Assembly: GCA_965228475.1 (NCBI GenBank)
Contig: OZ245817.1
Location: forward strand, 3,136,001 to 3,200,000
DNA length: 64,000 nucleotides
Direction of reading: 5' to 3'
Origin: Myxococcota bacterium
GTDB lineage: Bacteria > Myxococcota_A > UBA9160 > JAFDDA01
The notes beneath the pieces were generated by a model. It saw nothing but the letters and a program-made list of their open reading frames with translations, had not been told where the DNA came from and ran no database searches. How positions within the stretch are numbered: the first letter of the stretch is position 1; each line of letters opens with the position of its first letter. Made by a program: the position numbers and the translations under genes. Below, one piece after another: positions 8,453 to 58,517 of this stretch.

Positions 8453-9829
8453 GTGAAGCTCGAGGAACGCCAAACCATGAGTGGTGGTGAAGGAACCGTG
8501 CGTCGATCCAGTGCAGCCGTGCCGGCTTCGGCGGCGGAGGACCTGGATCCCGGCCGCGAGCGGCGGCCGCTCGAATCGTATTTCCAGGAGATCGGCGGAA
8601 CCCGCACGCTCAAGCGTGAGGAAGAAGTCATCCTGGCCAAGGAGCTCGAGGCCGCGACGGCCCAGCTGCGGGACGCGCTCTACGCGATCCCCGTCTGCGC
8701 CAAGCACGTCGTCGAGCGCTGGGACCAGCTGCGCGCGCTCTCCCACACCGGCGCCAAGCTCTCGGAGTCGGCCGGCGACGAGGAGACGGGCGAGATCGCG
8801 GCCCGCGTGGAGCGCGCCGTGAAGCGGCTGCGCAGCCAGCTCGCCGAGCGCGAGCGTCTCCAGAAGCGCGGCGGCACCGTCTCCGTGCAGAAGGTCGACG
8901 TGCGCATCGCGCGCGAGATGCACAACGCCCAGCTCTCGCTGGCCGTGCTCTCGGAGCTGCGCGAGCGCGTCGTGAAGCTCGAGATCGACATCCGCAAGAT
9001 GCGCCGCGGCACGAAGAAGCTCGAGGGGCTCGAGGCCGAGGCCGGCGTCGACAAGGAGCGGATGATCGAGCTCACGGACGGCGTGCTCGATGCCCACGAC
9101 CGCATGACCCGGGTGAAGAACGAGTTCATCGAGCACAACCTGAAGCTCGTGGTCGCCATCGCCAAGGACTACCGGAACCTCGGCCTCTCCTTCCCGGACC
9201 TGATCCAGGAAGGCAACCTGGGCCTGATCCGCGCGGTCGAGAAGTTCGACCACCGGCGCGGGTTCAAGTTCTCGACCTACGCGGTCTGGTGGATCCGCCA
9301 GGCGCTCGTGCGGGCGATCCAGAACCACTCGCGGACGATCCGCCTGCCCTCCCACGTCCACGACCGGCTGCAGCGCAGCCAGCGCGTGCGTGCGGAGCTG
9401 ACGGGCAAGCTCGGCCGGGAGCCCACGGCGCAGGAGCTCGCTCCCGCCCTCGGCACGGACTCGGACTCCCTCGAGGCCCTCGACCGGCTCTCCCGCGAGG
9501 CCATCTCGCTCGAGTCGACGGTCGCCGGCACCGAGAAGCGGCTCGAGGACTTCGTGGCCGATGCGGGCTCGAGCCGGCCGGACGGCGGCATCGACGGCGA
9601 TCGCATGCGGACGGGCGTCGGCGCCCTGGTCGGCTGCCTCTCGCCGCGCGAGCAGCTGATCCTGCGCATGCGCTACGGCCTCTCGGGCGAAGAGGAGCAC
9701 ACGCTCGAGCAGATCGGGCAGTCGCTCGGCCTCTCGCGCGAACGCGTGCGGCAGCTCGAGGCCCGGGCCCTGAAGAAGCTGCGGGAAGCCGCACCGGCCC
9801 AGCGCCTGCACCCGATCCTCAAGCCCTAG
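8453..9829 (+). CDS. Sigma-70 family RNA polymerase sigma factor (RpoD-like/group 2, no obvious region 1.1)
   Basis: Region 1.2 (LESYFQEIG...EEEVILAK), region 2 ([42 protein letters not shown]), region 4 ([20 protein letters not shown]). Alternative start ATG 8477. Confidence 0.93.
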
Positions 9830-9913: not shown

Positions 9914-10702
9914 CTAGACCGCGGCCTGCTGAAGTGCGAACCGGTCGTCCCCGCCGAGCTCCTCGGGAAGCTCCCGGGAGTGCGGACGCGTGAGGTCGAG
10001 GTCGTAGGTGATGCCGGCGCCGTAGCGCTCCGGCGCGTGCGGGTCACGCCGCAGGTGATCGAAGACGAGCAGCCGCGTCCCGAGCTTGAAGCCCTCGGAC
10101 AGGTCGTGGGTCACCATGAAGATCGTCATGCCGGACTCCTCGAAGAGCCGGAGGACGAGGTCGTGGATGGCATCCTTCGTGCCCGGGTCGAGGGCCCCGA
10201 ACGCCTCGTCGAGCAGCAGGACCTTGGGCTCGCGGATCAACGCCTGGGCGATGGAGAGCCGCTGCCGCATCCCGCCGGACAGGGAGTGGGGATGGGTCGC
10301 GCGCTCGCTCGCCAGCCCGACGCCCTCGAGGTACCGCTCGGCCTTCTCGATGGCCGCGCGCCGCGCGCTCCCGAACATGCGCCCGAGGAGCGGGGAAGCC
10401 TCGAACTCGAGGCCGAGCAGCACGTTCTCGAGCACCGTGAGGTGCGGGAAGACCGAGTAGCGCTGGAAGACCACGCCGCGGTCCGGCCCGGGCTCCTTCG
10501 CGAGCGGGCTGCCGTCGATCAGGATCTCCCCGCGAGTGGGCGTCTCCTGCGCCAGGAGCAGGCGGAGGAAGGTCGACTTCCCGCAGCCCGAGGGCCCGGC
10601 GACGGCGCAGAAGGTGTGCGGCGCGACCTCGAGGTCGATGTTCTCGAGGACGACCTTCTCGCCGTACTCGTGCCACAGGCCGCGAACGGAGATGGTGCTC
10701 AT
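9914..10702 (-). CDS. ABC transporter ATP-binding protein (NitT/TauT type, urea-carboxylase-associated)
   Basis: Start MSTISVRGLWHEYG at 10702; Walker A GPSGCGKST, LSGGMRQR, LLLDEAFGALD; C-terminal PERYGAGITYDL typical of this cluster. Confidence 0.92.
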   Translation of the reverse strand: MSTISVRGLWHEYGEKVVLENIDLEVAPHTFCAVAGPSGCGKSTFLRLLLAQETPTRGEILIDGSPLAKEPGPDRGVVFQRYSVFPHLTVLENVLLGLEFEASPLLGRMFGSARRAAIEKAERYLEGVGLASERATHPHSLSGGMRQRLSIAQALIREPKVLLLDEAFGALDPGTKDAIHDLVLRLFEESGMTIFMVTHDLSEGFKLGTRLLVFDHLRRDPHAPERYGAGITYDLDLTRPHSRELPEELGGDDRFALQQAAV

Positions 10703-11508
10703 GCGGCTTCTGCCTCCAGCCATCCGTATCGCCACCGGCGAAGCGCGCGGAGGCCGAAGTCGAGCAGGAACGCCAGGAGCGTGATCCACAGCACGTAGGG
10801 AAGGATCACGTTCATCGCGAGGTAGCGGCGCACCAGGAAGATCCGATAGCCGAGCCCGCTCGTGGCGGAGATGGCCTCCGCCGAGATCAAGAAGAGCCAG
10901 GCCGGCCCGAGCGAGAGCCGGAGCGAATCGATCAGGCGCGGCAGGGTCTGGGGCAGGATCACGCGAAACGCGAGCTGGGCGCTCGACGCTCCGAGCGTCT
11001 GCGCCTTGATCCACTGCTCTTCGGGGATCTCGGCCACGCGCTGGGAGAGATCGCGGATCATGAACGGCAGCACGCCGATCACGATCAGGGCGACCTTCGC
11101 GACCTCCCCCACCCCGAGCAGGATGAAGAGGATCGGCAGGATCGCGAGGGCCGGGATCATCGAGAGGACGGTGACGAGCGGCTCGAGACCCGCGCGCACC
11201 CAGGGCAGCATCCCGATCCCGAGCGCGAAGACGAGGGCGACCGGCGTCGCGATGCCGAGGCCGAGCGCCATGCGCTTGAGACTCTCCGCCGTGTCGAGCC
11301 AGAACAGCCGGCTTCCGGTGCGCGTGTCTTCCTCGAAGGCCATCTCGTGCCACGTCTCACCCACGCGGGCCGGGCTCGGCATCAGCTTGTCGTCGGGGTT
11401 CTCGGCGAGGCGGACCTGCGAACCGACGAGGTAGGCCAGGAGCAGGAGCAGGAACGGCACCGCCGCGATCCACCCCCCGTTGCGGGGTCTTCGATTGATC
11501 CAACGCAC
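10699..11508 (-). CDS. ABC transporter permease (urea-carboxylase-associated)
   Basis: GTG start (MRWINRRP...), RLAENPDDKLMP, EAA-like loop KAQTLGAS, LISAEAISATSGLGYRIFLVRRYLAM. Confidence 0.9.
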   Translation of the reverse strand: MRWINRRPRNGGWIAAVPFLLLLLAYLVGSQVRLAENPDDKLMPSPARVGETWHEMAFEEDTRTGSRLFWLDTAESLKRMALGLGIATPVALVFALGIGMLPWVRAGLEPLVTVLSMIPALAILPILFILLGVGEVAKVALIVIGVLPFMIRDLSQRVAEIPEEQWIKAQTLGASSAQLAFRVILPQTLPRLIDSLRLSLGPAWLFLISAEAISATSGLGYRIFLVRRYLAMNVILPYVLWITLLAFLLDFGLRALRRWRYGWLEAEAA

Positions 11509-11520
11509 GCCTGCTGCAAA

Positions 11521-11537
11521 AGCAAGCACGGTGCCAA
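11521..11537 (-). promoter_or_regulatory. Sigma-54 -24/-12 promoter for the ABC permease/ATPase
   Basis: Minus strand TTGGCACCGTGCTTGCT matches TGGCAC-N5-TTGC. Confidence 0.8.
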
Positions 11538-11585
11538 CGCGGATGGGCTGCTTCGCGCCGCCTTCCGCCACTCGAAGCCCACGCG

Positions 11586-11636
11586 TGTGCATGCACTGCT
11601 CCCGCGTTGTGCACGGGCGTGACACTTCGGTGTGCA
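11586..11636. promoter_or_regulatory. Candidate NtrC-like enhancer sites between the divergent sigma-54 promoters
   Basis: TGTGCA at 11586, 11608 and 11631 (22-23 bp period). TGCTCC-N5-TGTGCA (11597-11613) resembles the NtrC box TGCACC-N5-GGTGCA. Confidence 0.55.
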
Positions 11637-11708
11637 TCGGTCGGACCCGTTTCGGAACACATGGGCTTTCGATGACCCCGAACCGAACCGCCCGGCCCGC
11701 GATCCGCA

Positions 11709-11725
11709 CTGGCACGAGAGTTGCG
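11709..11725 (+). promoter_or_regulatory. Sigma-54 -24/-12 promoter for the porin/substrate-binding protein/carboxylase operon
   Basis: CTGGCACGAGAGTTGCG matches TGGCAC-N5-TTGC, about 110 nt upstream of ATG 11836. Confidence 0.8.
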
Positions 11726-11835
11726 ATGGGCCCGTCGCAGATGAACTGCATGTCGCCCCAGTCGGATCGCACGTGGGAATCGTTCCGATCTCTCCTCACG
11801 CCGGCTGGGGCGACCGAACCCTTCAAGGAGAAGAA

Positions 11836-12561
11836 ATGACTGTTCGACGAGTGCTCTTGCTGCTTTGCGCAGTGACTTTGAGCGTGCCCGCAGCCGCCGA
11901 AGAGGAGCCCGCCCCCGACGATTGGTTTCCGGGAGAGTTCTCCGGGAACGTGACCCTCATCAGCGACTACGTCTTCCGCGGCGTCTCGCAGACCCGCGAA
12001 TCCTTCGCTCTCCAGGCCGGAATCGACTGGAACCACGACAGCGGCCTGTACGCCGGCGTCTGGGGTTCGAGCATCTCCTTCGGTGGAGACGACTCCTTCC
12101 TCGAGCAGGACGTGTACATCGGATACGCGAACAACATCGGGGACTTCTCCTACGACGTGTCGGCGATCTTCTTCTACTACCCGAAGGAGAACGACTTCAA
12201 CTACTGGGAGTTCGCGGTCAACACCGGCTACGACCTCGACTTCGCCCAGCTGAGCTTCGGCTTCCTGTGGTCGCCGGACTACTTCGGCACGCTCGACTCC
12301 GGCTGGTACGTCTCGACCGGCCTGAGCGTTCCGATCCCGGTCGAGATTCCGTACGGCTTCGACCTCGGGCTCGACTTCACCTTCGGCTACACGGCGACGG
12401 ACGAGGACATCTTCGACGACGATGACTACCTCGACTGGAGCGTGGGTCTCGTGGTGGGTCTGCCCAAGGGCTTCTCCCTCGACCTCCGGTACCACGACAC
12501 CAGCGAGAACCTGGACATCGCGGACGCTCGATTCGTCGGCGGCCTGACGTTCAGCTTCTAG
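11836..12561 (+). CDS. TorF-family putative outer-membrane porin
   Basis: AAGGAG RBS; signal peptide; SGNVTLISDYVFRGVSQT, ALQAGIDWNHDSGLYAGVWGSSI; C-terminal Phe (LTFSF). Confidence 0.88.
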   Translation: MTVRRVLLLLCAVTLSVPAAAEEEPAPDDWFPGEFSGNVTLISDYVFRGVSQTRESFALQAGIDWNHDSGLYAGVWGSSISFGGDDSFLEQDVYIGYANNIGDFSYDVSAIFFYYPKENDFNYWEFAVNTGYDLDFAQLSFGFLWSPDYFGTLDSGWYVSTGLSVPIPVEIPYGFDLGLDFTFGYTATDEDIFDDDDYLDWSVGLVVGLPKGFSLDLRYHDTSENLDIADARFVGGLTFSF

Positions 12562-12577: not shown

Positions 12578-13648
12578 ATGACGAAGCGTCTCTTCGCCTC
12601 GATCGCCTTCGGCCTGTGCGTGGCGATCCTCACCGCGAGCCCGTCCGCGACGGCCGAGTCCAAGGACTCGTTCAAGATCGCCTGGTCGATCTACGTGGGC
12701 TGGATGCCCTGGGGGTACATGGAGGACTCCGGGATCATCGACCGGTGGGCGGACAAGTACGACATCGACATCGAGATCGTCCAGATCAACGACTACATCG
12801 AATCCATCAACCTCTTCACCGCGGGGGAGTTCGACGGGTGCTCCATGACCAACATGGACGCCCTGACGATTCCCGCCGCGGGAAGCGTGGACTCGACGGC
12901 GCTGATCGTGGGCGACTTCTCGAACGGCAACGACGGCGTCGTGCTCAAGGGCACGAAGGATCTCGCGGCAGTGAAGGGACGGAAGGTCCACCTCGTGGAG
13001 CTCTCGGTCTCGCACTACCTGCTGGCCCGAGCGCTCGACTCCGTGGGGCTCGCGGAGAAGGACGTCACCGTCGTGAACATCTCCGACGCGGACATCGTGG
13101 CGGCCTTCGCCACGAAGGACGTGACGGCGGGCACCCTGTGGAACCCCCAGCTCTCGGAAGTCACCCGGATGCCGGGGAACCACAAGGTCTTCGACTCGAG
13201 CCAGATCCCCGGCGAGATCATCGACATGATGGTCGTGAAGACCGAGACCCTGAAGGCCAACCCGAAGCTCGGGAAGGCGCTGGTCGGGGCCTGGTACGAG
13301 ACCATGAAGCTGCTCGCCGACCCGGGCGAGGCCGGCCAGAAGGCGCGGACGGCCATGGCCAAGGCCGCAGGCACGGACCTCGCGGGCTACGAGGCCCAGC
13401 TGGCCACGACGCAGATGTTCTTCGAACCGGCCGCAGCGGTGGACTTCGTGAAGAGCGAAGCCCTCCCGAAGACCATGGACCACGTCCGGCAGTTCTCCTT
13501 CTCGCACGGCCTGCTCGGCCCGGGCGCGAAGTCGCCGGACGCCATCGGCATCGCCTTCCCGGGCGGAAAGGTCCTGGGAGACGAGACCAAGGTGAAGCTC
13601 CGCTTCGACGCCGCCTACCAGGGGATGGCTGCAGCCGGAGGGCTCTAG
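12578..13648 (+). CDS. Putative urea/guanidine ABC transporter substrate-binding protein
   Basis: Signal peptide; AWSIYVGWMPW, NDYIESINLFTAGEFDG, MTNMDAL, DFSNGNDG, FDSSQIPGEIID motifs characteristic of urea-carboxylase-region binding proteins. Confidence 0.92.
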   Translation: MTKRLFASIAFGLCVAILTASPSATAESKDSFKIAWSIYVGWMPWGYMEDSGIIDRWADKYDIDIEIVQINDYIESINLFTAGEFDGCSMTNMDALTIPAAGSVDSTALIVGDFSNGNDGVVLKGTKDLAAVKGRKVHLVELSVSHYLLARALDSVGLAEKDVTVVNISDADIVAAFATKDVTAGTLWNPQLSEVTRMPGNHKVFDSSQIPGEIIDMMVVKTETLKANPKLGKALVGAWYETMKLLADPGEAGQKARTAMAKAAGTDLAGYEAQLATTQMFFEPAAAVDFVKSEALPKTMDHVRQFSFSHGLLGPGAKSPDAIGIAFPGGKVLGDETKVKLRFDAAYQGMAAAGGL

Positions 13649-13652
13649 GCAC

Positions 13653-13686
13653 GAACGGGGAGCGCCCTCGGCTCCCCGTTCTCTTT
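13653..13686 (+). terminator. Intra-operon stem-loop/terminator after the substrate-binding protein gene
   Basis: gaacggggagc-7 nt loop-gctccccgttc followed by tcttt. Confidence 0.65.
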
Positions 13687-13697
13687 GACCCGCAGGA

Positions 13698-14195
13698 GTG
13701 TTACGAACCCCCGTGAACGTCATCGGCCTGTCCAAGCGCGAGAACGTCGTCCGCTTCAGCGTGTCGCTGCCGCGGGCACTGGCCTCCCAGCTCGACGCCA
13801 TGGTCGAGGACCGCCAGCTCCCGAGCCGATCCCGCGCCGTGGCCGAGATGGTGCGCCGCCAGCTCGCACGCCACCGCCTGGCCCTCGGAACCGACGTCGT
13901 GGCGGGCACCATCACCCTCGTCTACGGCGGCGATCGGGCCAGCCTCCGCGGCGAGCTCTTCCGCATCCAGCGTCGCTACCTCCGCGAGACGCTCACCTCG
14001 CAACACGCCTTCCTCGAGGGCAGCCACAGCCTCGAAGTGCTGCTCGTGCAGGGTCCGGGCAGCCGCCTGCAGTCCCTGTGCGACGAACTGCTCGCCTGCC
14101 GCGGTGTGGAGCAGGCCGAGCTGACGGTCACCAGCGCACTCTTGCCCCCGCTCCATCCCGTCGGAGCTTCGACCGAGGAGGACGCCTCTCGATGA
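13698..14195 (+). CDS. NikR/CopG family ribbon-helix-helix regulator with ACT-like C-terminal domain, nickel ligands not conserved
   Basis: VVRFSVSLPRALASQLDAMV...SRSRAVAEMVR (RHH) and VAGTITLVY...SLEVLLVQG...RGVEQAEL (NikR_C). Exact start uncertain. Confidence 0.85.
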   Translation: MLRTPVNVIGLSKRENVVRFSVSLPRALASQLDAMVEDRQLPSRSRAVAEMVRRQLARHRLALGTDVVAGTITLVYGGDRASLRGELFRIQRRYLRETLTSQHAFLEGSHSLEVLLVQGPGSRLQSLCDELLACRGVEQAELTVTSALLPPLHPVGASTEEDASR

Positions 14196-14986
14196 GCGAC
14201 ACCGCGACCCCGGAATCCGCGCGCGCGCACGCGCGGGCCCAGGCCGACTCCGAAGCCGCCCGCGTCGCCGCCCGCCCCACCCTGCCCGCCCGCGAGTTCG
14301 CCGACGTTCCTCCGGGCGTGCCGCGCGAGGCGCTTTTCTGGGCCGAGACGCTCGGACCCGGCGGCTACGCATCGCGCCGCCTCCCTCGCGGCTCGCGGCT
14401 GCGGATCGACGACCTCGAGGGCGAGGCCTCGGCCGGGCTGATGCTCTACAACGCGGCGGAGACCTGGGAGCGGTTGAACGTCGCGGACACGGTGAAGGTC
14501 CAGTGGCAGGCCTACCTCGGCGAAGGCTCCCTGCTGCTCTCGGACATGGGGCGCGTGCTCGCGAGCCTCCTCGAGGACGAATCCCGCGGTCACGACACGA
14601 TCTGTGGGGTCTCGGCCGGAAGCCCGAAGGGCCGCGATCGTTTCACCCTCGCGCTGGCGAAGCACGGCCTCACCAAGCGCGACCTGCCCATCAACCTGAA
14701 CCTGTTCAAGCCCGTGCGCGTCGGCCCCGAGGGCGGACTCACGCTCGACGTCGCCGAGGCTTCCCCCGGCCACGTCACGCTGCGGGCGGAGATGGACGTC
14801 CTGGCCGTCGTCGTGAACGTCGCCCACGTGCTGGACGATCGGGTGGGCCCGCCCCTCACCCCCCTGCGCCTGCTGGCCTGGCACGGTGAGGTCGCTCCCC
14901 TCGAAGACGCGATACGCAACGCGACTCCCGAACGGCGCCGCGCCTTCGAGAACGTCGAGGCCTACTACGGGGAGGTCGATCGATGA
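14192..14986 (+). CDS. cgdA: DUF1989 urea-carboxylase-associated protein (carboxyguanidine deiminase subunit A)
   Basis: ERLNVADTVKVQWQAYLGEGSLLLSDMGRVLAS, HDTICG, FTLALAKHGL, LRAEMDVL; ATGA overlap with the regulator gene. Confidence 0.85.
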   Translation: MSDTATPESARAHARAQADSEAARVAARPTLPAREFADVPPGVPREALFWAETLGPGGYASRRLPRGSRLRIDDLEGEASAGLMLYNAAETWERLNVADTVKVQWQAYLGEGSLLLSDMGRVLASLLEDESRGHDTICGVSAGSPKGRDRFTLALAKHGLTKRDLPINLNLFKPVRVGPEGGLTLDVAEASPGHVTLRAEMDVLAVVVNVAHVLDDRVGPPLTPLRLLAWHGEVAPLEDAIRNATPERRRAFENVEAYYGEVDR

Positions 14987-15606
14987 GCGACGTCCCCGCG
15001 GATCGCACCGTGCACGACGAGATCGTGGCGGCGTGTGCGCCCTGGTCGCGCTGCATTGCGGCCGGCGAGACGCTGCGGATCGTCGACCTCGAGGGGAACC
15101 AGGCCGTGGACTGCCTGCTCTACGACCCCCACGACCCCGACGAACGCTACAGCGCGGCCGAAACGATCGTTCGCCAGCGAAACATCTTCCTCACCACGGG
15201 CACCGAGCTGGTCTCGAACGAAGGCCGGACGATGATGACCGTGGTCGAAGACCAGGTCGGCCATCACGACACCCTCGGCGGAGCCTGCAGCTGCGAATCG
15301 AACACGCTCCGCTACGGCCACCACACGAAGCATCAACACGCCTGCGTCGAGAACTTCCTGATCGACCACGCCGCCCGGGGCCGTGGAAAACGCGACGTCG
15401 TGAGCAACATCAACTGGTTCATGAACGTCCCCGTCGAGGCCGACGGCTCCCTCGGCATCGTCGACGGCCGCTCCGCACCGGGCAAGTACCTCGAGCTGCG
15501 CGCGGAGCGCGACACCCTGGTCGTGGTGAGCAACTGCCCCCAGATCAACAACCCGTGCAACGCCTTCCATCCGACCCCCGTACGGATGATCGTGTACCGC
15601 GGATGA
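14983..15606 (+). CDS. cgdB: DUF1989 urea-carboxylase-associated protein (carboxyguanidine deiminase subunit B)
   Basis: DLEGNQAVD, HDTLGGACSCESN, NINWFMNVPV, SNCPQINNPCN. Confidence 0.9.
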   Translation: MSDVPADRTVHDEIVAACAPWSRCIAAGETLRIVDLEGNQAVDCLLYDPHDPDERYSAAETIVRQRNIFLTTGTELVSNEGRTMMTVVEDQVGHHDTLGGACSCESNTLRYGHHTKHQHACVENFLIDHAARGRGKRDVVSNINWFMNVPVEADGSLGIVDGRSAPGKYLELRAERDTLVVVSNCPQINNPCNAFHPTPVRMIVYRG

Positions 15607-18600
15607 GTCACGGGCGGCCCTTCGACCGCGTCCTCGTCGCGAACCGTGGCGAGATCGCCTGCCGCGTTCTCGCGACGCTCTCTCGCATGGGGATCGCCTC
15701 GGTCGCCGTCTACTCCGAAGCGGATGCCGGGGCGCTGCACGTCCGGCGAGCGGACGAGGCGCACGCGATCGGCCCCGCTCCGGTGGCCGAGAGCTACCTC
15801 GATGGCGACCGCATCCTGGCCGCGGCCCGGGCCAGCGGAGCGCAGGCCATCCACCCGGGCTACGGCCTGCTCTCGGAGAGCGCAGACTTCGCGGCCGCCT
15901 GCGAGGCCGAGGGCCTGGTCTTCCTCGGCCCCACCCCGGAACAGATCGCCGACTTCGGGCGCAAGGACCGCGCTCGGGCGCTCGCCGAGGCCGCGGGGGT
16001 CCCGACCTGCCCGGGCACGGGGACGCTCACCTCACTCGCAGAGGCCTCCGCCGCGGCCGCTGCGATCGGCTATCCGCTGCTCCTCAAGGCAACGGCCGGC
16101 GGCGGCGGCATCGGCATGGCGCTGTGCCGGGACGAAGCCGAGCTCGCCGAGGCCTTCGAACGCGTCTCGCGCCTCGGCGCGTCGCACTTCGGAAGCAGCG
16201 AGACCTTCCTCGAACGCTTCGTCGCGCGGGCGCGACACGTCGAAGTCCAGATCTTCGGGGACGGTGCCGGTGGCGTGCACACGCTCTCGGAACGTGACTG
16301 TTCCCTGCAGCGGCGGCGCCAGAAGGTGGTCGAGGAGGCCCCGGCGCCGGGCGTTTCGGGAGCGATGCGCACCGCCCTCGCCGCGGCGGCCGAACGCCTG
16401 GCCTCCGCCGTCGGCTACCGCTCCGCCGGAACGATCGAGTTCCTGGTCGACCCCGAACGCGAGGCCTTCTACTTCCTCGAGGTCAACACCCGCCTGCAGG
16501 TCGAACACGGCGTGACCGAGGCGATCTTCGGCATCGATCTCGTCGAATGGATGCTGCGCGTCGGCGCGGGGGAGCCGCTGCCGAAGGTTCCCTCGCCCTG
16601 CGGGCACGCCGTGGAGGTGCGTCTCTACGCCGAGGATCCGGGCCGCGACTTTCAACCGTGCAGCGGGACCCTCTCGGAGGTGCGCTTTCCCGAAGACCTG
16701 CGGGTGGACACGGGGGTCGAGCCCGGCACCGAGGTCTCCCCCTTCTACGACCCGCTGCTCGCGAAGCTCGTCACCCACGCACCGACCCGTGAGTTGGCCA
16801 TCGCGCAGATGCGGGAGGGCCTCGAGGGGACGCGGCTCGACGGCATCACCACCAACCGGGCGTACCTCGCCGCGATCCTCGGCTGGAGCCCCTTCCGCAC
16901 GGGCGTCCACCACACCCGCTCCCTCGAAGAGTTCGCCTTCGAGCCGCGAGCGCTGCGGGTGGAGCGGCCGGGAGCGGCGACCACCGTCCAGGACTTCCCC
17001 GGCCGGCTCGGTTCCTGGGGCGTCGGCATCCCGCCCTCGGGCCCGATGGATTCCCTGGCCTTCCGGATCGCCAACCGGATCGTCGGCAACCCGGACGGCG
17101 CGGCCGGCCTCGAGCTGACGCTCTCTGGACCCGCCCTTCGATTCGACCATCCGGCCTGGATCGCCCTGACCGGCGCCGTGGCCGAAGCGACCTGCGGTGG
17201 CGAGCCCGTCCCGCCCTGGACGCCCGTCCGGGTCGCTGCGGGGCAGACGCTCGACGTCGGCCGCATCGGTGACGGCGGAACGGGACCGCTCGGCGGGCTC
17301 CGCGCGTACCTCGCCGTGCGTGGGGGGCTCGACGTCCCCGACTACCTCGGCGCCAAGGCCACCTTCACCCTCGGACGGCTCGGCGGCCACGCGGGCCGGG
17401 CCCTCGTCGCGGGCGACACCCTCGAGTTCGGCGCCGAAGACGGGGAGGCACCCCTCGCGCCCGCCCTCTCCGCCGAGGCCGCGCACGCCCTGGCCCGGCT
17501 CCACCCCTTGCACGGTGAGAGCGCCCGGGCAGAGGCCTGGGAGCTTCGGGTGCTCGACGGCCCCCACGGCCAGGGCTTCTTCACGGAGGACGACCTGCGG
17601 GAGTTCTACGGCGCGACCTTCGAGGTCCACCATCAGTCCGCGCGCACCGGCGTCCGACTGATCGGACCGACGCCCCACTTCGCACGGCCCGACGGCGGCG
17701 ACGCCGGGCTCCATCCTTCGAACGTCCACGACAACGCCTACGCCGTGGGCGCCGTCGACTTCACCGGGGACATGCCTGTGATCCTCGGGCCGGACGGGCC
17801 GAGCCTCGGCGGCTTCGTCTGCCCGGCGGTCGTCATCGAGGCGGACCGCTGGAAGCTTGGGCAGCTGCGCGCGGGCGATCCGGTCCGCTTCCTGCCGACG
17901 TCGGAGGCCGAAGCCTCGGAGGCCCGGGCCGGGGTCGAGCGTGCCGTCGCCTCCCGCGAGGCCGCGAAACCGCCGCACCCCGTGCGCCGCGCGCCCGCGC
18001 CCCTCGACGACGGAATCCTGCTCGACCGCGCCGGGTCGGGCGACGGCCCTCGCTTCGTCGTCCGGCGCAGCGGCGACCGCTATCTGCTGATCGAGTTCGG
18101 TCCGTTCCACTTCGACCTCGCGCTGCGCATCCGGGTCCAGCTCCTCCACGCAGCGCTCGAGCAGGCCGTCTCGGCGGGCACGCTCCCCGGCATCGTCGAC
18201 CTGACCCCGGGCGTCCGCTCGCTCCAGGTCCACTTCGATCCACGCCGCCTTTCGCGCGACGCGCTGCTCGAACGCCTCGACGAACTCGAAGGCGATCTGC
18301 CGGCCGGTGAAGGGCTCCGCCTCCCGAGCCGGGTCGTCCACCTGCCGCTCTCCTGGGAGGACCCCGGCGCCGTCGAGGCCATGCGCCGCTACGAGGCCAC
18401 GGTCCGTGACGATGCCCCCTGGACGCCGAGCAACGTCGAGTTCATCCGGCGCATCAACGGCCTCGACTCCGCCGAAGACGTCCGGCGCATCGTCTTCGAC
18501 GCGCACTACCTGGTGCTCGGGCTCGGCGACGTCTACCTCGGCGCGCCCGTCGCGACCCCGCTCGATCCGCGGCATCGCCTCGTCACCACCAAGTACAACC

Positions 18601-19289
18601 CCGCGCGCACCTGGACGCCGGAGAACGCGGTGGGGATCGGCGGCGCCTACCTGTGCATCTACGGGATGGAAGGCCCCGGCGGCTACCAGCTCGTCGGCCG
18701 CACGATCCCGGTCTGGCGGACCCACGGCGGCTGGCCGGGATCGCCCGAGGGCCCGCCCTGGCTTCTGCGCTGCTTCGACCAGCTCCGCTTCTTTCCCGTC
18801 TCGGCCGAGGAGTTGATGGATCGGCGCCGGGACGTCGCCAACGGATGCGGCGACATCGCGATCGAGGAGACGGTCTTCGAGCCGGCCGCACATGCCCGCT
18901 TCCTCGACTCGATCGCGGAGGACACCGAGCGCTTCCGGAAGCGGCAACGGCGGGCCTTCCGCGAGGAGCGGGAGCGGTGGCGGGCGAGCGGGGAGCTCGA
19001 GGCCGCCGCCCGCGCCGAGCGCCGCGCCTCCCCGGAGCCCGCGCCGATGGACGCGCTCGAGGAAGGCGTCGCCTGGGTGACGGCACCGATGGGTGCCCAG
19101 ATCGTGACGGTCCCCGTCTCGGTGGGCGAAGCCGTCGCCGCGGGCGACACGCTCGCGACGCTGTCCGCCATGAAGACCGAGTCCGCCGTCCCGGCGCCCG
19201 CCGCCGGCACCGTCGAGCGCATCGCGTGCCAACCGGGCCAGGTCGTCGCACCGGGCGCGCCCCTGGTCGCGCTGCGGGAGGCATCGTGA
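15603..19289 (+). CDS. uca: Urea carboxylase family biotin-dependent carboxylase (probable guanidine carboxylase)
   Basis: Biotin carboxylase domain (VLVANRGEIACR, GGGGIGM, FLEVNTRLQVEH), carboxyltransferase (HPSNVHDNAY, LVTTKYNPARTWTPENAVGIGG), biotinyl domain AMKT. Confidence 0.95.
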   Translation: MSHGRPFDRVLVANRGEIACRVLATLSRMGIASVAVYSEADAGALHVRRADEAHAIGPAPVAESYLDGDRILAAARASGAQAIHPGYGLLSESADFAAACEAEGLVFLGPTPEQIADFGRKDRARALAEAAGVPTCPGTGTLTSLAEASAAAAAIGYPLLLKATAGGGGIGMALCRDEAELAEAFERVSRLGASHFGSSETFLERFVARARHVEVQIFGDGAGGVHTLSERDCSLQRRRQKVVEEAPAPGVSGAMRTALAAAAERLASAVGYRSAGTIEFLVDPEREAFYFLEVNTRLQVEHGVTEAIFGIDLVEWMLRVGAGEPLPKVPSPCGHAVEVRLYAEDPGRDFQPCSGTLSEVRFPEDLRVDTGVEPGTEVSPFYDPLLAKLVTHAPTRELAIAQMREGLEGTRLDGITTNRAYLAAILGWSPFRTGVHHTRSLEEFAFEPRALRVERPGAATTVQDFPGRLGSWGVGIPPSGPMDSLAFRIANRIVGNPDGAAGLELTLSGPALRFDHPAWIALTGAVAEATCGGEPVPPWTPVRVAAGQTLDVGRIGDGGTGPLGGLRAYLAVRGGLDVPDYLGAKATFTLGRLGGHAGRALVAGDTLEFGAEDGEAPLAPALSAEAAHALARLHPLHGESARAEAWELRVLDGPHGQGFFTEDDLREFYGATFEVHHQSARTGVRLIGPTPHFARPDGGDAGLHPSNVHDNAYAVGAVDFTGDMPVILGPDGPSLGGFVCPAVVIEADRWKLGQLRAGDPVRFLPTSEAEASEARAGVERAVASREAAKPPHPVRRAPAPLDDGILLDRAGSGDGPRFVVRRSGDRYLLIEFGPFHFDLALRIRVQLLHAALEQAVSAGTLPGIVDLTPGVRSLQVHFDPRRLSRDALLERLDELEGDLPAGEGLRLPSRVVHLPLSWEDPGAVEAMRRYEATVRDDAPWTPSNVEFIRRINGLDSAEDVRRIVFDAHYLVLGLGDVYLGAPVATPLDPRHRLVTTKYNPARTWTPENAVGIGGAYLCIYGMEGPGGYQLVGRTIPVWRTHGGWPGSPEGPPWLLRCFDQLRFFPVSAEELMDRRRDVANGCGDIAIEETVFEPAAHARFLDSIAEDTERFRKRQRRAFREERERWRASGELEAAARAERRASPEPAPMDALEEGVAWVTAPMGAQIVTVPVSVGEAVAAGDTLATLSAMKTESAVPAPAAGTVERIACQPGQVVAPGAPLVALREAS

Positions 19290-21043
19290 GCCGCGCGGAG
19301 CTTGCCACCGAGCGGGTCGAGCGCTTCCTCGACGCGCGCGAACGGGAGCCGCGGCCCGAGGCCTGGCTCTACGTGCCTCCCGCCGAGACCCTGCTCGAGA
19401 GCGCGCGCGCCGCCGACGCCGAGGCGGGCGATCGCCTCCGGCGCCCCCTGCTCGGCACCGTCTTCGCGGTGAAGGACAACCTCGACGTCGCGGGCTGGCC
19501 CACGACCGCCGGCTGCCCGGCCTTCTCCTACGTCCCCGACGTGAGCGCGCGCGTCGTGAGCCGCCTCCAGGCGGCGGGCGCCCTCCCCGTCGGCAAGACC
19601 CACATGGACCAGTTCGCGACGGGCCTCGTCGGGACGCGTTCTCCCCACGGGCCGTGCCGCAACGCCCACGACCCCTCGGTGATCTCGGGCGGATCGAGCA
19701 GCGGCTCCGCCGTCGCCGTCGCTACGGGCTGCGTCGACTTCGCGCTCGGCACCGACACGGCCGGCTCCGGGCGCGTGCCCGCCGCGCTGAACGGCGTCTT
19801 CGGCCTCAAGCCCACGCGGGGCATGCTCTCGACGCGCGGCGTAGTACCCGCGTGTCCGAGCCTCGATTGCGTCTCGGTCTTCGCCCCGGACGGGGCGAAC
19901 GCCGCCGACGTCTTCGCCGCGGCCCGCGCACCGGACCCGACGGATCCCTACTCGCGCCCGGGCACCGCGCGGCGGAACTTCGGGGAGTCCTTTCGATTCG
20001 CCCTTCCGCCCGACGACGTTCTCGGGCAGGTCGACGCCGAGCACCGGGCGAGTCTCTCGCGCGCCGCCGAGCTCCTGCACGACTTCGGGGGCCGGCGCGT
20101 GGACGTCGATTGGGAGCCTTTCCGGGCGGCGTCGAGGCTCCTCTACCAGGGCCCGTGGCTCGCGGAACGGGAAGCGGCGTTCGGCCAGTTCGTTTCCGCT
20201 CACCCCGAAGCCGTGGACCCGACGGTCCGGGCGATCCTCGAAGGAGCCCGGGCGATCTCGGGCGCCGACGTCTTCCGCGGCCTCCACCGGCTGCAAGTGC
20301 TCCGGCGCGACGCGGCGCGCAGCTTCGAAGCCTTCGAGGTGCTCGTCGTTCCGCCGGTCACCCGCTCCTACCGGATCCAGGAAGTCCTAGTCGATCCGAT
20401 CGCGACGAACGCTGCCCTCGGCACCTTCAACAACTTCGTGAACCTGCTCGACCTGTGCGCCTGCGTTACACCGATCTCCGCCGCCCCGGGCGAAGTGCCG
20501 AGCGGCGTCACGCTGTGCGCGCCCGCCTTCGCCGACGACGCCCTGCTCGAGGTCGCGCGCCGGCTCGAAGCCGCCCGCGGGCCGATCCCGCTTCGTCCCG
20601 CCGCCGCCGACCGGATCGAGCTCGTCGTGGTCGGCGCCCACCTCTCGGGAATGCCTCTCCACCACGAACTCGAGGCGCTCGGCGCTCGCTTCGCCCGAGC
20701 CCTTCGGACCGAGCCCCGCTACCGGCTGCACGCCCTGCCCGGCACGGATCCCCCGAAGCCGGGCCTCGTGCAGACGGCCCGCGACGGTGTGGCGATCGAG
20801 GTCGAGGTGTACCGCCTCACGCCGGAGGCCTTCGGGCGCTTCGTCGAGGCCATCCCGGCTCCGCTCGGCATCGGGCGAATCGCCCTCGAAGACGGAACGC
20901 GGCCGGCGGGGTTCCTGTGCGAGGCCGTCGGACTCGAATCCGCACGGGACGTCTCGCAGTACGGCGGCTGGCGGGCCTTCCGCGCCGCCGAATCGGATGG
21001 AAAGGCCCCGGCTCACGGGGCGCAAAACGAGGAGATGAAGTGA
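19286..21043 (+). CDS. atzF: Allophanate hydrolase
   Basis: Amidase signature (FAVKDN, GGSSSGSA, GTDTAGSGRVPA) plus C-terminal domain (VVVGAHLSGMPL, DVSQYGGWRAF). Confidence 0.93.
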   Translation: MSRAELATERVERFLDAREREPRPEAWLYVPPAETLLESARAADAEAGDRLRRPLLGTVFAVKDNLDVAGWPTTAGCPAFSYVPDVSARVVSRLQAAGALPVGKTHMDQFATGLVGTRSPHGPCRNAHDPSVISGGSSSGSAVAVATGCVDFALGTDTAGSGRVPAALNGVFGLKPTRGMLSTRGVVPACPSLDCVSVFAPDGANAADVFAAARAPDPTDPYSRPGTARRNFGESFRFALPPDDVLGQVDAEHRASLSRAAELLHDFGGRRVDVDWEPFRAASRLLYQGPWLAEREAAFGQFVSAHPEAVDPTVRAILEGARAISGADVFRGLHRLQVLRRDAARSFEAFEVLVVPPVTRSYRIQEVLVDPIATNAALGTFNNFVNLLDLCACVTPISAAPGEVPSGVTLCAPAFADDALLEVARRLEAARGPIPLRPAAADRIELVVVGAHLSGMPLHHELEALGARFARALRTEPRYRLHALPGTDPPKPGLVQTARDGVAIEVEVYRLTPEAFGRFVEAIPAPLGIGRIALEDGTRPAGFLCEAVGLESARDVSQYGGWRAFRAAESDGKAPAHGAQNEEMK

Positions 21044-58441: not shown

Positions 58442-58517
58442 TGGTCGGGGTGGTGGGATTCGAACCCACGACGCTGACCACCCAAAGATCAGGCTCTGGC
58501 CACTGAGCTACACCCCG
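58442..58517 (-). tRNA. tRNA-Pro (anticodon UGG), atypical sequence, encoded CCA
   Basis: 76-nt cloverleaf CGGGGTG TA GCTC AGTGGCCA GAGC C TGATC TTTGGGT GGTCA GCGTC GTGGG TTCGAAT CCCAC CACCCCG ACCA; C1-G72 and A73 proline identity elements. Confidence 0.9.

What the first reader, a model, noticed from the sequence alone, without database searches (positions are those of the whole stretch)
13698..14195. NikR paralog that has lost three of four nickel ligands: candidate guanidine-pathway sensor
Seen: RIQRRYLRETLTSQHAFLEGSHSLEVLLVQG. Known: the equivalent E. coli NikR segment carries Ni ligands H76, H87, H89 and C95. By-eye alignment gives R, H, F and S here. The gene overlaps cgdA (ATGA), and the carboxylase route is the nickel-independent alternative to urease. 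Inference: the ACT-like domain is repurposed to bind an organic effector such as guanidine, carboxyguanidine or allophanate.
Basis: partly seen in the sequence, partly recalled or inferred. Interest (0 to 1): 0.7.

Follow-up and report, generated by a model that had tools for sequence, protein, structure and literature searches.

The report
Nickel-blind NikR controlling guanidine breakdown
This gene encodes a DNA-binding protein built like the bacterial nickel sensor NikR but without its nickel site; it and its relatives sit with their own operator in guanidine-breakdown operons, mostly where other bacteria use a guanidine-sensing RNA switch, so it is a candidate protein switch for guanidine use whose signal molecule is still unknown.

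Summary
Observation confirmed: against NikR ligands H76/H87/H89/C95 the protein has R92/H103/F105/S111. It belongs to a large conserved subfamily tied to cgdA-cgdB-carboxylase operons: 78 of 80 genome loci, and 26 of 33 randomly drawn Verrucomicrobiota cgdB loci. The linked carboxylases carry the guanidine-type Asp (window, 69/69, 26/26). A 28-bp NikR-geometry operator, TATTAC-N14-GTAATA, precedes these genes (90 of 95 promoters, shuffles 0.25) and straddles a -35 box (46 of 49), which points to a repressor. The window's own copy (13698-13725) is degenerate. In 35 randomly drawn Pseudomonadota cgdA loci, 31 of 32 without this regulator have a guanidine-I riboswitch and 0 of 3 with it do. Against simple substitution: two loci carry both, and five Verrucomicrobiota genomes show neither. 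The former ligand positions vary across the family (only C95 is lost in 129 of 129), so no guanidine pocket is shown. The effector is inferred, not tested. This genome has no urease or NiFe hydrogenase hit. The scan noted this family before on other genomes (e1-7792307, e1-5273350). I found no paper on it.

The parts
13698..14195 (+). NikR-fold regulator without the nickel site (longest ORF; likely start GTG 13713, 160 aa)
13752..13871 (+). Ribbon-helix-helix DNA-binding domain (residues 19-58); beta-ribbon R19/S21/S23 as in P. horikoshii and H. pylori NikR; E. coli E30 and R33 positions are R46 and A49
13902..14132 (+). NikR_C (ACT-like) domain, residues 69-145; former Ni ligands R92 (13971), H103 (14004), F105 (14010), S111 (14028); family-fixed E107, E113, Q118
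14139..14156 (+). C-terminal LLPPLH extension typical of the ligand-lost subfamily, absent from canonical NikR (tail in 0 of 54 HHHC and 48 of 72 ligand-lost rows)
13698..13725 (.). Operator-like 28-bp site: good left half GTGTTAC, weak right half inside the probable coding start. Best site in 9-22 kb by PWM (-5.0, next -17.8), rank 12 in the genome; 4 mismatches in the palindrome scheme, which 3 places in the window reach
13653..13681 (+). 11-bp GC-rich hairpin between the binding-protein gene and the operator; possible weak terminator or processing stem (z -1.74; not called a terminator by the consensus scan)
11710..11724 (+). sigma-54-type -24/-12 site facing porin and binding-protein genes; conserved in closest relative L155
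   Evidence: consensus recalled; 27 exact sites in the 5-Mb genome
11522..11536 (-). sigma-54-type -24/-12 site facing permease and ATPase genes; conserved in L155
11597..11613 (.). NtrC-box-like site between the divergent sigma-54 sites (11 of 14 consensus positions; consensus recalled; only 9 of 14 in L155)
11836..12561 (+). TorF/Gcw_chp family putative porin
12578..13648 (+). TIGR03427 ABC substrate-binding protein (guanidine/urea-carboxylase-associated importer)
   Evidence: 549 bits, cut-off 334
10699..11508 (-). ABC permease of the importer
9914..10702 (-). ABC ATPase of the importer
14192..14986 (+). cgdA (UAAP1, TIGR03425), carboxyguanidine deiminase subunit; ATGA overlap with the regulator
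14983..15606 (+). cgdB (UAAP2, TIGR03424)
15603..19289 (+). Urea/guanidine carboxylase (TIGR02712) with Asp719 (codon 17757) where the K. lactis urea carboxylase has Asn
19286..21043 (+). Allophanate hydrolase AtzF

Best explanation
A NikR-derived transcription repressor dedicated to guanidine assimilation. SHOWN (sequence): RHH plus NikR_C fold without the square-planar Ni site; fixed linkage to cgdA-cgdB-guanidine carboxylase; a 28-bp operator of two GTAWTAC-type half-sites 21 bp apart that travels with the gene. INFERRED: it binds the operator as a NikR-like tetramer without nickel and represses its own gene and cgdA-cgdB-carboxylase-atzF (in relatives also the importer). An organic signal of the pathway binds the C-terminal domain and releases it: guanidinium itself (about 0.35) or a derived or related compound such as carboxyguanidine, allophanate or a substituted guanidine (about 0.2). 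That inverts NikR's co-repressor logic. In this genome, nitrogen starvation acts separately through two sigma-54 promoters on the importer, and the regulator gates the catabolic genes at 13698-13725, giving 'nitrogen-starved AND substrate present' logic, the job a guanidine-I riboswitch does elsewhere.
For: Ligand loss. Linkage: 78 of 80 genome loci have a pathway gene in the flank, the other two end just after the regulator; 26 of 33 Verrucomicrobiota loci drawn by cgdB carry a ligand-lost paralog. Carboxylases are Asp-type: window, 69 of 69 readable among 80, 26 of 26 (rule from passages of PMC12186494; column). Operator: 90 of 95 first-gene upstream regions at <=2 mismatches against 0.25 in shuffles; 23 of 26 Verrucomicrobiota loci with the regulator, 0 of 7 without, shuffles 1.5; TTGAC at offset 9 inside the operator in 46 of 49 internal promoters. 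Riboswitch swap: 31 of 32 Pseudomonadota cgdA loci without the regulator have guanidine-I, 0 of 3 with it; 1 of 84 regulator loci, none in the window (6 of 6 positive controls found). In G198 the one locus with only guanidine-II proved to have a regulator and operator at the importer promoter. No urease or NiFe hydrogenase hit in this 96%-complete genome.
Against: No binding or expression data. Residues at the old Ni site are not fixed family-wide (HHHY 7, RHLI 4, RQMN 2 and others among 25 Verrucomicrobiota proteins; F105 is V or H in 19% of 104 others), so a single rebuilt guanidinium pocket is not evident. Two loci have both regulator/operator and a guanidine-I riboswitch: L073 and Acinetobacter NCu2D-2 plasmid L230, where sigma-54 site, operator and riboswitch share the cgdA promoter; a second guanidine sensor would be redundant there. 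Five Verrucomicrobiota genomes show neither, as does L122. The riboswitch contrast is confounded by kinship: the 80 loci are mostly Sphingomonadales and Caulobacterales, and several have short upstream flanks. The window's own site has 4 mismatches and no sigma-70 promoter was found near it. At importer promoters the operator lies 6-8 bp upstream of a -35-like box (offsets 34-36 in 45 of 54 regions), which also fits activation.
Confidence: 0.55

Rival explanations
1. Still a metal sensor, with a rebuilt or lower-affinity site (H103 and E113, with H59, E107 or the tail H153) that couples the operon to Ni, Zn or another ion.
For: H103 is kept in 99% of 104 and 76% of 25 linked proteins, E113 in 100% and 92%; H59 and H153 are common. 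Seven Verrucomicrobiota proteins keep three His (HHHY). One locus (L197) lies beside a urease operon. A gradient of ligand loss is seen among distant members.
Against: C95 is lost in 129 of 129. The YDHH histidines of canonical NikR (98% and 84% in 55) are mostly gone, and so are the E30 and R33 positions. Some linked members (RQMN, RQLV) keep none of the four ligands and no tail His. No urease in 37 of 47 regulator genomes; none and no NiFe hydrogenase in this one. No nickel transporter was recognised in this cluster.
Confidence: 0.15
2. A sensor of general nitrogen status (ammonium, glutamine, 2-oxoglutarate, or a partner protein) acting as co-repressor, keeping NikR's ligand-on, DNA-on logic.
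For: Keeps the ancestral allosteric direction. Explains coexistence with a guanidine riboswitch in L073 and L230 and the tolerance of varied residues at the old site.
Against: Where the operator occurs with sigma-54 sites (L230 three times, L155, L231) nitrogen control is probably already supplied by NtrC/sigma-54 (inference). No wider regulon: the alphaproteobacterial PWM finds no strong site elsewhere in this genome (top score 1.4, training sites >=12.5). It would not predict the scarcity of guanidine-I riboswitches.
Confidence: 0.15
3. An effector-less autorepressor that only caps expression of the ATP-consuming carboxylase operon; the C-terminal domain serves for tetramer formation alone.
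For: Variable residues at the old ligand site; operator over its own promoter; degenerate site in this genome.
Against: Very strong conservation of the beta2-beta3 region in the window's clade (E97, Q102, H103, E113, Q118 at 120-121 of 121) and family-specific E107, Q118 and PP[LVI]H tail across phyla; replacement of an inducible riboswitch.
Confidence: 0.1
4. A urea sensor for genomes that lack urease and use the carboxylase plus AtzF for urea.
For: Urease is rarer in regulator genomes (10 of 47) than in the comparison genomes (25 of 33). A review states that carboxylases not linked to riboswitches are predicted to be urea-specific (PMC12186494 passage).
Against: All readable linked carboxylases are Asp-type, and cgdA/cgdB, needed only for carboxyguanidine, follow the regulator directly in most loci.
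Confidence: 0.05

Closest known systems
NikR, nickel-responsive RHH regulator (P. horikoshii 2bj1/2bj3, H. pylori 2ca9/6mrj, E. coli 1q5v/2hza)
   Same: RHH plus ACT-like NikR_C architecture (C-domain rmsd 1.3-1.6 A to 2y3y/3pht/1q5y); beta-ribbon residues; 28-bp inverted-repeat operator geometry (E. coli GTATGA-N16-TCATAC, PMC7055735 passage; deltaproteobacterial GTGTTAC-N13/14-GTAACAC, PMC545781 passage).
   Different: H76, H89 and C95 replaced; E30, R33 and YDHH positions changed; extra LLPPLH tail; below all five NCBIfam NikR cut-offs; separate branch from HHHC proteins; controls a nitrogen-catabolic operon rather than nickel uptake.
Guanidine-I and -II riboswitch control of guanidine carboxylase operons (Raoultella, Klebsiella, Vreelandella)
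   Same: Same target genes: ABC importer, cgdA/B, Asp-type carboxylase, atzF (PMC12186494 and PMC12508155 passages).
   Different: Control element is a protein and a DNA operator; no Rfam riboswitch in the window or found in the genome (only 150 candidates scored each).
ACT/RAM-domain small-molecule regulators such as Lrp/AsnC (recalled, not tested)
   Same: ACT-like fold used for organic effectors; weak Pfam ACT_6 hit, E 0.017, below cut-off.
   Different: RHH instead of HTH; sequence and fold are clearly NikR-derived.

Membership tests
NikR nickel-responsive regulator | N-terminal ribbon-helix-helix plus C-terminal NikR_C domain | tested here: met
NikR nickel-responsive regulator | High-affinity Ni ligands His76', His87, His89, Cys95 | tested here: not met
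   R92, H103, F105, S111; ligand list from PMC7055735 passage
NikR nickel-responsive regulator | Low-affinity (K+) site Glu30 and Asp34 | tested here: not met
   R46 and E50 here; Gln at the first position in 93% of 104 and 88% of 25 linked proteins; the Glu is only 58% even among 55 canonical proteins
NikR nickel-responsive regulator | Score above curated NCBIfam NikR cut-offs | tested here: not met
   best 90.3 bits against cut-off 105; five models, none passed
NikR nickel-responsive regulator | 27-28-bp inverted-repeat operator | tested here: met
   family level; the window's own site is degenerate
NikR nickel-responsive regulator | Linkage to nickel uptake or nickel enzymes | tested here: not met
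   neighbours are guanidine-pathway genes; no urease or NiFe hydrogenase hit in the genome; one relative (L197) lies beside urease genes
NikR nickel-responsive regulator | Homotetramer | not tested
NikR nickel-responsive regulator | Ni-dependent DNA binding | not testable with these tools
   needs protein
Guanidine carboxylase pathway operon | cgdA, cgdB, carboxylase, atzF and ABC importer | tested here: met
   TIGR03425, 03424, 02712, 02713, 03427 all above cut-off
Guanidine carboxylase pathway operon | Active-site Asp (guanidine type) rather than Asn (urea type) | tested here: met
   Asp719 aligned to Asn of K. lactis 3va7; rule; that this is the column meant (N1330) is recalled
Guanidine carboxylase pathway operon | Guanidine riboswitch in the leader | tested here: not met
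Guanidine-sensing transcription factor (proposed) | Direct guanidinium binding that changes DNA binding | not testable with these tools
   no ligand docking or binding assay available

The most novel reading that the evidence does not exclude
A widespread subfamily of NikR has been converted from a nickel-dependent co-repressor into a guanidinium-released repressor: a protein receptor for free guanidine that has replaced the guanidine-I riboswitch in Sphingomonadales, Caulobacterales, Verrucomicrobiota and scattered other lineages, with the direction of allostery inverted.
Probability: 0.35. Interest if true: 0.85.

Novelty: new variant of a known kind. Interest (0 to 1): 0.7.

Why it matters
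[quoted passage not shown] This family gives a concrete candidate with a defined operator and cultured hosts, so the question becomes directly testable. It would also be a natural case of a riboswitch being swapped for a protein, and of a metal sensor turned into an organic-ligand sensor. Whatever the effector, many proteins labelled 'nickel-responsive regulator' in databases are probably mislabelled, and guanidine use would extend to bacteria that riboswitch-based surveys miss.

Tried and rejected
No RNA holder was listed for the region. Genome-wide riboswitch searches in 50 regulator genomes gave guanidine-I over cut-off in 1 of 50 and guanidine-II in 1 of 50, but only 61 and 95 candidates per genome were scored, so I rely on locus scans. 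The guanidine-III search of the own genome rang in no control and shows nothing. A within-order control in Caulobacterales failed for lack of numbers: 3 of 151 genomes had cgdB; the two besides the centre genome both had the regulator. The Fisher test ignores kinship and predates the reclassification of L152; it is not used. The tree is the quick version, 126 rows by 140 columns, 26 gappy rows dropped; it separates HHHC from ligand-lost proteins with 2 label changes but does not prove one origin. 'Sequencing error or local decay' was rejected. An operator in the divergent 11510-11835 region was not found in this genome. Compensation of lost His ligands by the tail His was considered: HHHY proteins lack it, but RQMN/RQLV proteins lack both, so no clean pattern. 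Dyad hits in riboswitch loci L131 and L136 look like repeats of Tyr-Tyr codons (by eye). Kin of this genome mostly lack the gene: 3 of 100 had a weak match and all three are canonical HHHC NikR. Literature: ten full-text searches showed no paper that, by title or abstract start, describes this family; only listings were seen for most. Read as keyword passages only: PMC2667541, PMC12186494, PMC5343134, PMC12508155, PMC7055735, PMC545781, PMC12623156. Papers I wanted but could not open (ids recalled, or taken from a reference list, and not held): the 2006 comparative NikR regulon study, the Geobacter NikR study and Nelson 2017. Schneider 2020, Sinn 2021, the RegPrecise database and all supplements were not seen and may mention this gene or motif.

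Full report
Observation. The ORF at 13698-14195 encodes a 165-aa protein with an RHH domain (residues 19-58) and a NikR_C domain (69-145). It matches solved NikR chains by sequence (P. horikoshii 2bj1, E 7e-24) and by fold (AlphaFold model, mean pLDDT 87.8; all 30 Foldseek hits displayed are NikR), but stays below all five NCBIfam NikR cut-offs. Against E. coli NikR the nickel ligands H76, H87, H89 and C95 (list from a passage of PMC7055735) read R92, H103, F105 and S111. The ATGA overlap with cgdA is at 14192-14195. The start is probably GTG 13713.

Family. The first search gave 1834 proteins at E<=0.001, canonical NikR included; the best 120 are 51-99% identical. In these plus the window protein, H103 is in 121, F105 in 119 and S111 in 117 of 121, the H76 column is variable, and R84, Q91, E97, Q102, E107, E113, Q118 and a C-terminal LLPPLH are nearly fixed. 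A profile search of 50%-cluster representatives reached a wider set. A quick tree of 126 of 152 rows separates 54 HHHC proteins from 72 ligand-lost ones with two label changes, and places the window in a 15-row clade (support 94). Among 129 proteins taken from operon-linked loci, C95 is lost in all; the other three positions vary, most in Verrucomicrobiota (HHHY 7, RHLI 4, RQMN 2 and others of 25). Features shared by both linked groups and unlike 55 canonical proteins are Q118 (100% and 100% against R/K 86%), E107, Gln for E30, Ala for R33, loss of the YDHH histidines, and the PP[LVI] tail. So the nickel site is gone, but no single replacement pocket can be read off the old ligand positions.

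Gene context. In the window the gene lies between a TIGR03427 binding protein and cgdA-cgdB-carboxylase-atzF, with permease and ATPase divergent. Of the best 80 of 596 genome matches (found with two peptide patterns, so restricted to this clade and mostly Sphingomonadales and Caulobacterales), 76 have cgdB, 74 cgdA and 74 the carboxylase in the flank; 78 have at least one pathway gene and two contigs end after the regulator. To avoid that bias I drew loci by the enzyme: 34 of 351 Verrucomicrobiota genomes have cgdB; dropping the centre genome, 26 of 33 carry a ligand-lost paralog within -8/+4 kb (one cut by the region end), and two of the other seven are truncated by contig ends. The carboxylase has Asp719 where K. 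lactis urea carboxylase has Asn. A review gives Asp for guanidine and Asn for urea carboxylases (PMC12186494 passage; the residue number is my recall). Asp is found in 69 of 69 readable loci among the 80 (11 unreadable) and 26 of 26 Verrucomicrobiota loci, and also in the 7 without regulator. The pathway is thus guanidine-type. This 96%-complete genome has a single NikR_C gene and no urease or NiFe hydrogenase hit; urease is present in 10 of 47 regulator genomes and 25 of 33 comparison genomes (many are incomplete assemblies, and one of the 33, G198, later proved to have the regulator). Only canonical NikR was found in 3 of 100 relatives, so the cluster is patchy in this order.

Operator. Upstream regions show TATTAC-N14-GTAATA: 90 of 95 first-gene regions at <=2 mismatches, 0.25 in base shuffles, 0-3 at other spacings except 11 (14) and 17 (34), and 49 of 56 regions before internal regulator copies. 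The geometry equals that of known NikR operators. It follows the gene in another phylum: 23 of 26 Verrucomicrobiota loci with regulator, 0 of 7 without, 1.5 in shuffles; 2 of 33 Pseudomonadota comparison loci. In 46 of 49 internal promoters a TTGAC box sits at offset 9 inside the operator, the placement of a repressor. In 45 of 54 importer regions a -35-like box starts 6-8 bp after it, which fits repression or activation. In the window the best site of the 9-22 kb cluster is 13698-13725, right at the gene start (PWM -5.0, next -17.8, rank 12 in the genome). Alone it is weak (4 mismatches; three such places in 64 kb), but its left half GTGTTACG recurs 54 and 63 nt before the R19 codon in the two closest relatives, L155 and L156 (69% and 67% identical), with an in-frame start codon inside the spacer. 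The divergent region holds two sigma-54-type sites (11710 +, 11536 -), both conserved in L155, and an NtrC-like box, but no operator here; L155 has one just downstream of its + site (3 mismatches).

Riboswitch contrast. From 401 Pseudomonadota genomes, 36 have cgdA over cut-off; dropping the centre leaves 35 loci. Rfam found guanidine-I in 31 and only guanidine-II in one (L152); L122, L141 and L142 had none. L141 and L142 carry the regulator (L142 is the same locus as L005). A genome-wide search of the other 33 found a family member in one genome only, that of L152, divergent from the importer with an operator and a near-consensus sigma-54 site; six others have canonical HHHC NikR elsewhere. 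So guanidine-I is at 31 of 32 loci without and 0 of 3 with the regulator. A guanidine-I model built from these hits found 6 of 6 positive controls, 1 of 84 regulator loci (L073) and nothing in the window, and 0 of 35 Verrucomicrobiota and Caulobacterales loci. Full Rfam on 34 of the 80 loci agreed. Against a strict swap: L073 and the Acinetobacter NCu2D-2 plasmid cluster have both, the latter with sigma-54 site, operator and riboswitch before cgdA and operators at two more sigma-54 promoters; five Verrucomicrobiota genomes and L122 show neither. Kin are not independent and some flanks are short, so these counts are not a statistical test.

How it most likely works. Shown: fold, loss of the nickel site, linkage to a guanidine-type operon, an operator that travels with the gene and overlaps its promoter. 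Inferred: nickel-free operator binding, repression of regulator-cgdA-cgdB-carboxylase-atzF, and release by a pathway signal (0.55 in all; guanidinium about 0.35, an intermediate or analogue about 0.2), layered on sigma-54 nitrogen control of the importer. Rivals: rebuilt metal site 0.15, nitrogen-status co-repressor 0.15, effector-less autorepressor 0.10, urea sensor 0.05. I put about 0.9 on the family regulating these operons and about 0.7 on the degenerate site being used in this genome.

Known and new. It works like NikR in DNA recognition, but fails the defining nickel-ligand test and should not be filed as a nickel-responsive regulator. Ten full-text searches showed no paper on this family; key subscription papers, RegPrecise and supplements were not seen. 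A 2025 review calls riboswitches the only known guanidine receptors. Earlier agents of this scan reached the same reading on other genomes; I looked them up after finding the operator and the riboswitch contrast, and they are not independent support. Verdict: new variant of a known kind, interest 0.7.

Noticed in passing
window 11799-11830; L155 about 1200-1235: A small GC hairpin (CGCC...GGCG) directly before the porin ribosome-binding site looks conserved between the window and its closest relative; no Rfam match.
   Followed up: no
L004, L006, L013, L015 and other Novosphingobium loci: Two paralogous regulator copies per cluster, one before the importer and one before cgdA, about 50% identical to the window protein, each usually with an operator.
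   Followed up: partly
L230 3430-20787 (Acinetobacter sp. NCu2D-2 plasmid NZ_CP015595.1): Plasmid-borne cluster with a QHQV-type regulator heading atzF, three sigma-54 promoters each with an operator, a guanidine-I riboswitch before cgdA, and a 2OG-Fe(II) oxygenase, a hypothetical protein and an SMR transporter, reminiscent of methylguanidine demethylation genes.
   Followed up: partly
L217, L220-L222, L224, L225: Verrucomicrobiota loci with three DUF1989 genes in a row (cgdA and two cgdB-like) and neither regulator, operator nor riboswitch found.
   Followed up: partly
L199, L202, L208, L209, L213, L216 between ATPase and regulator: About 2.4 kb of extra genes inside the operon; not identified here (an earlier scan note describes a creatininase-like and a glutamine-synthetase-like pair in such operons).
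   Followed up: no
L197 627-3192 (-): A urease operon lies divergent from the importer-regulator-cgdAB-carboxylase cluster in one Verrucomicrobiota genome.
   Followed up: partly
L085 1466-1493: A canonical HHHC NikR in a genome of the same order has a perfect GTGTTAC-N14-GTAACAC site over its own promoter, the same left half as the window's site.
   Followed up: yes
L131 5228-5357; L136 6563-6690: Runs of TATTAC/TACTAC repeats at 21- and 39-nt periods upstream of the guanidine importer, probably a Tyr-rich repeat protein.
   Followed up: no
window 8453-9829 (+): RpoD/RpoS-like sigma factor gene converging on the importer ATPase (by eye).
   Followed up: no
window 58445-58517 (-): A tRNA gene, the only Rfam hit in the window.
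   Followed up: no
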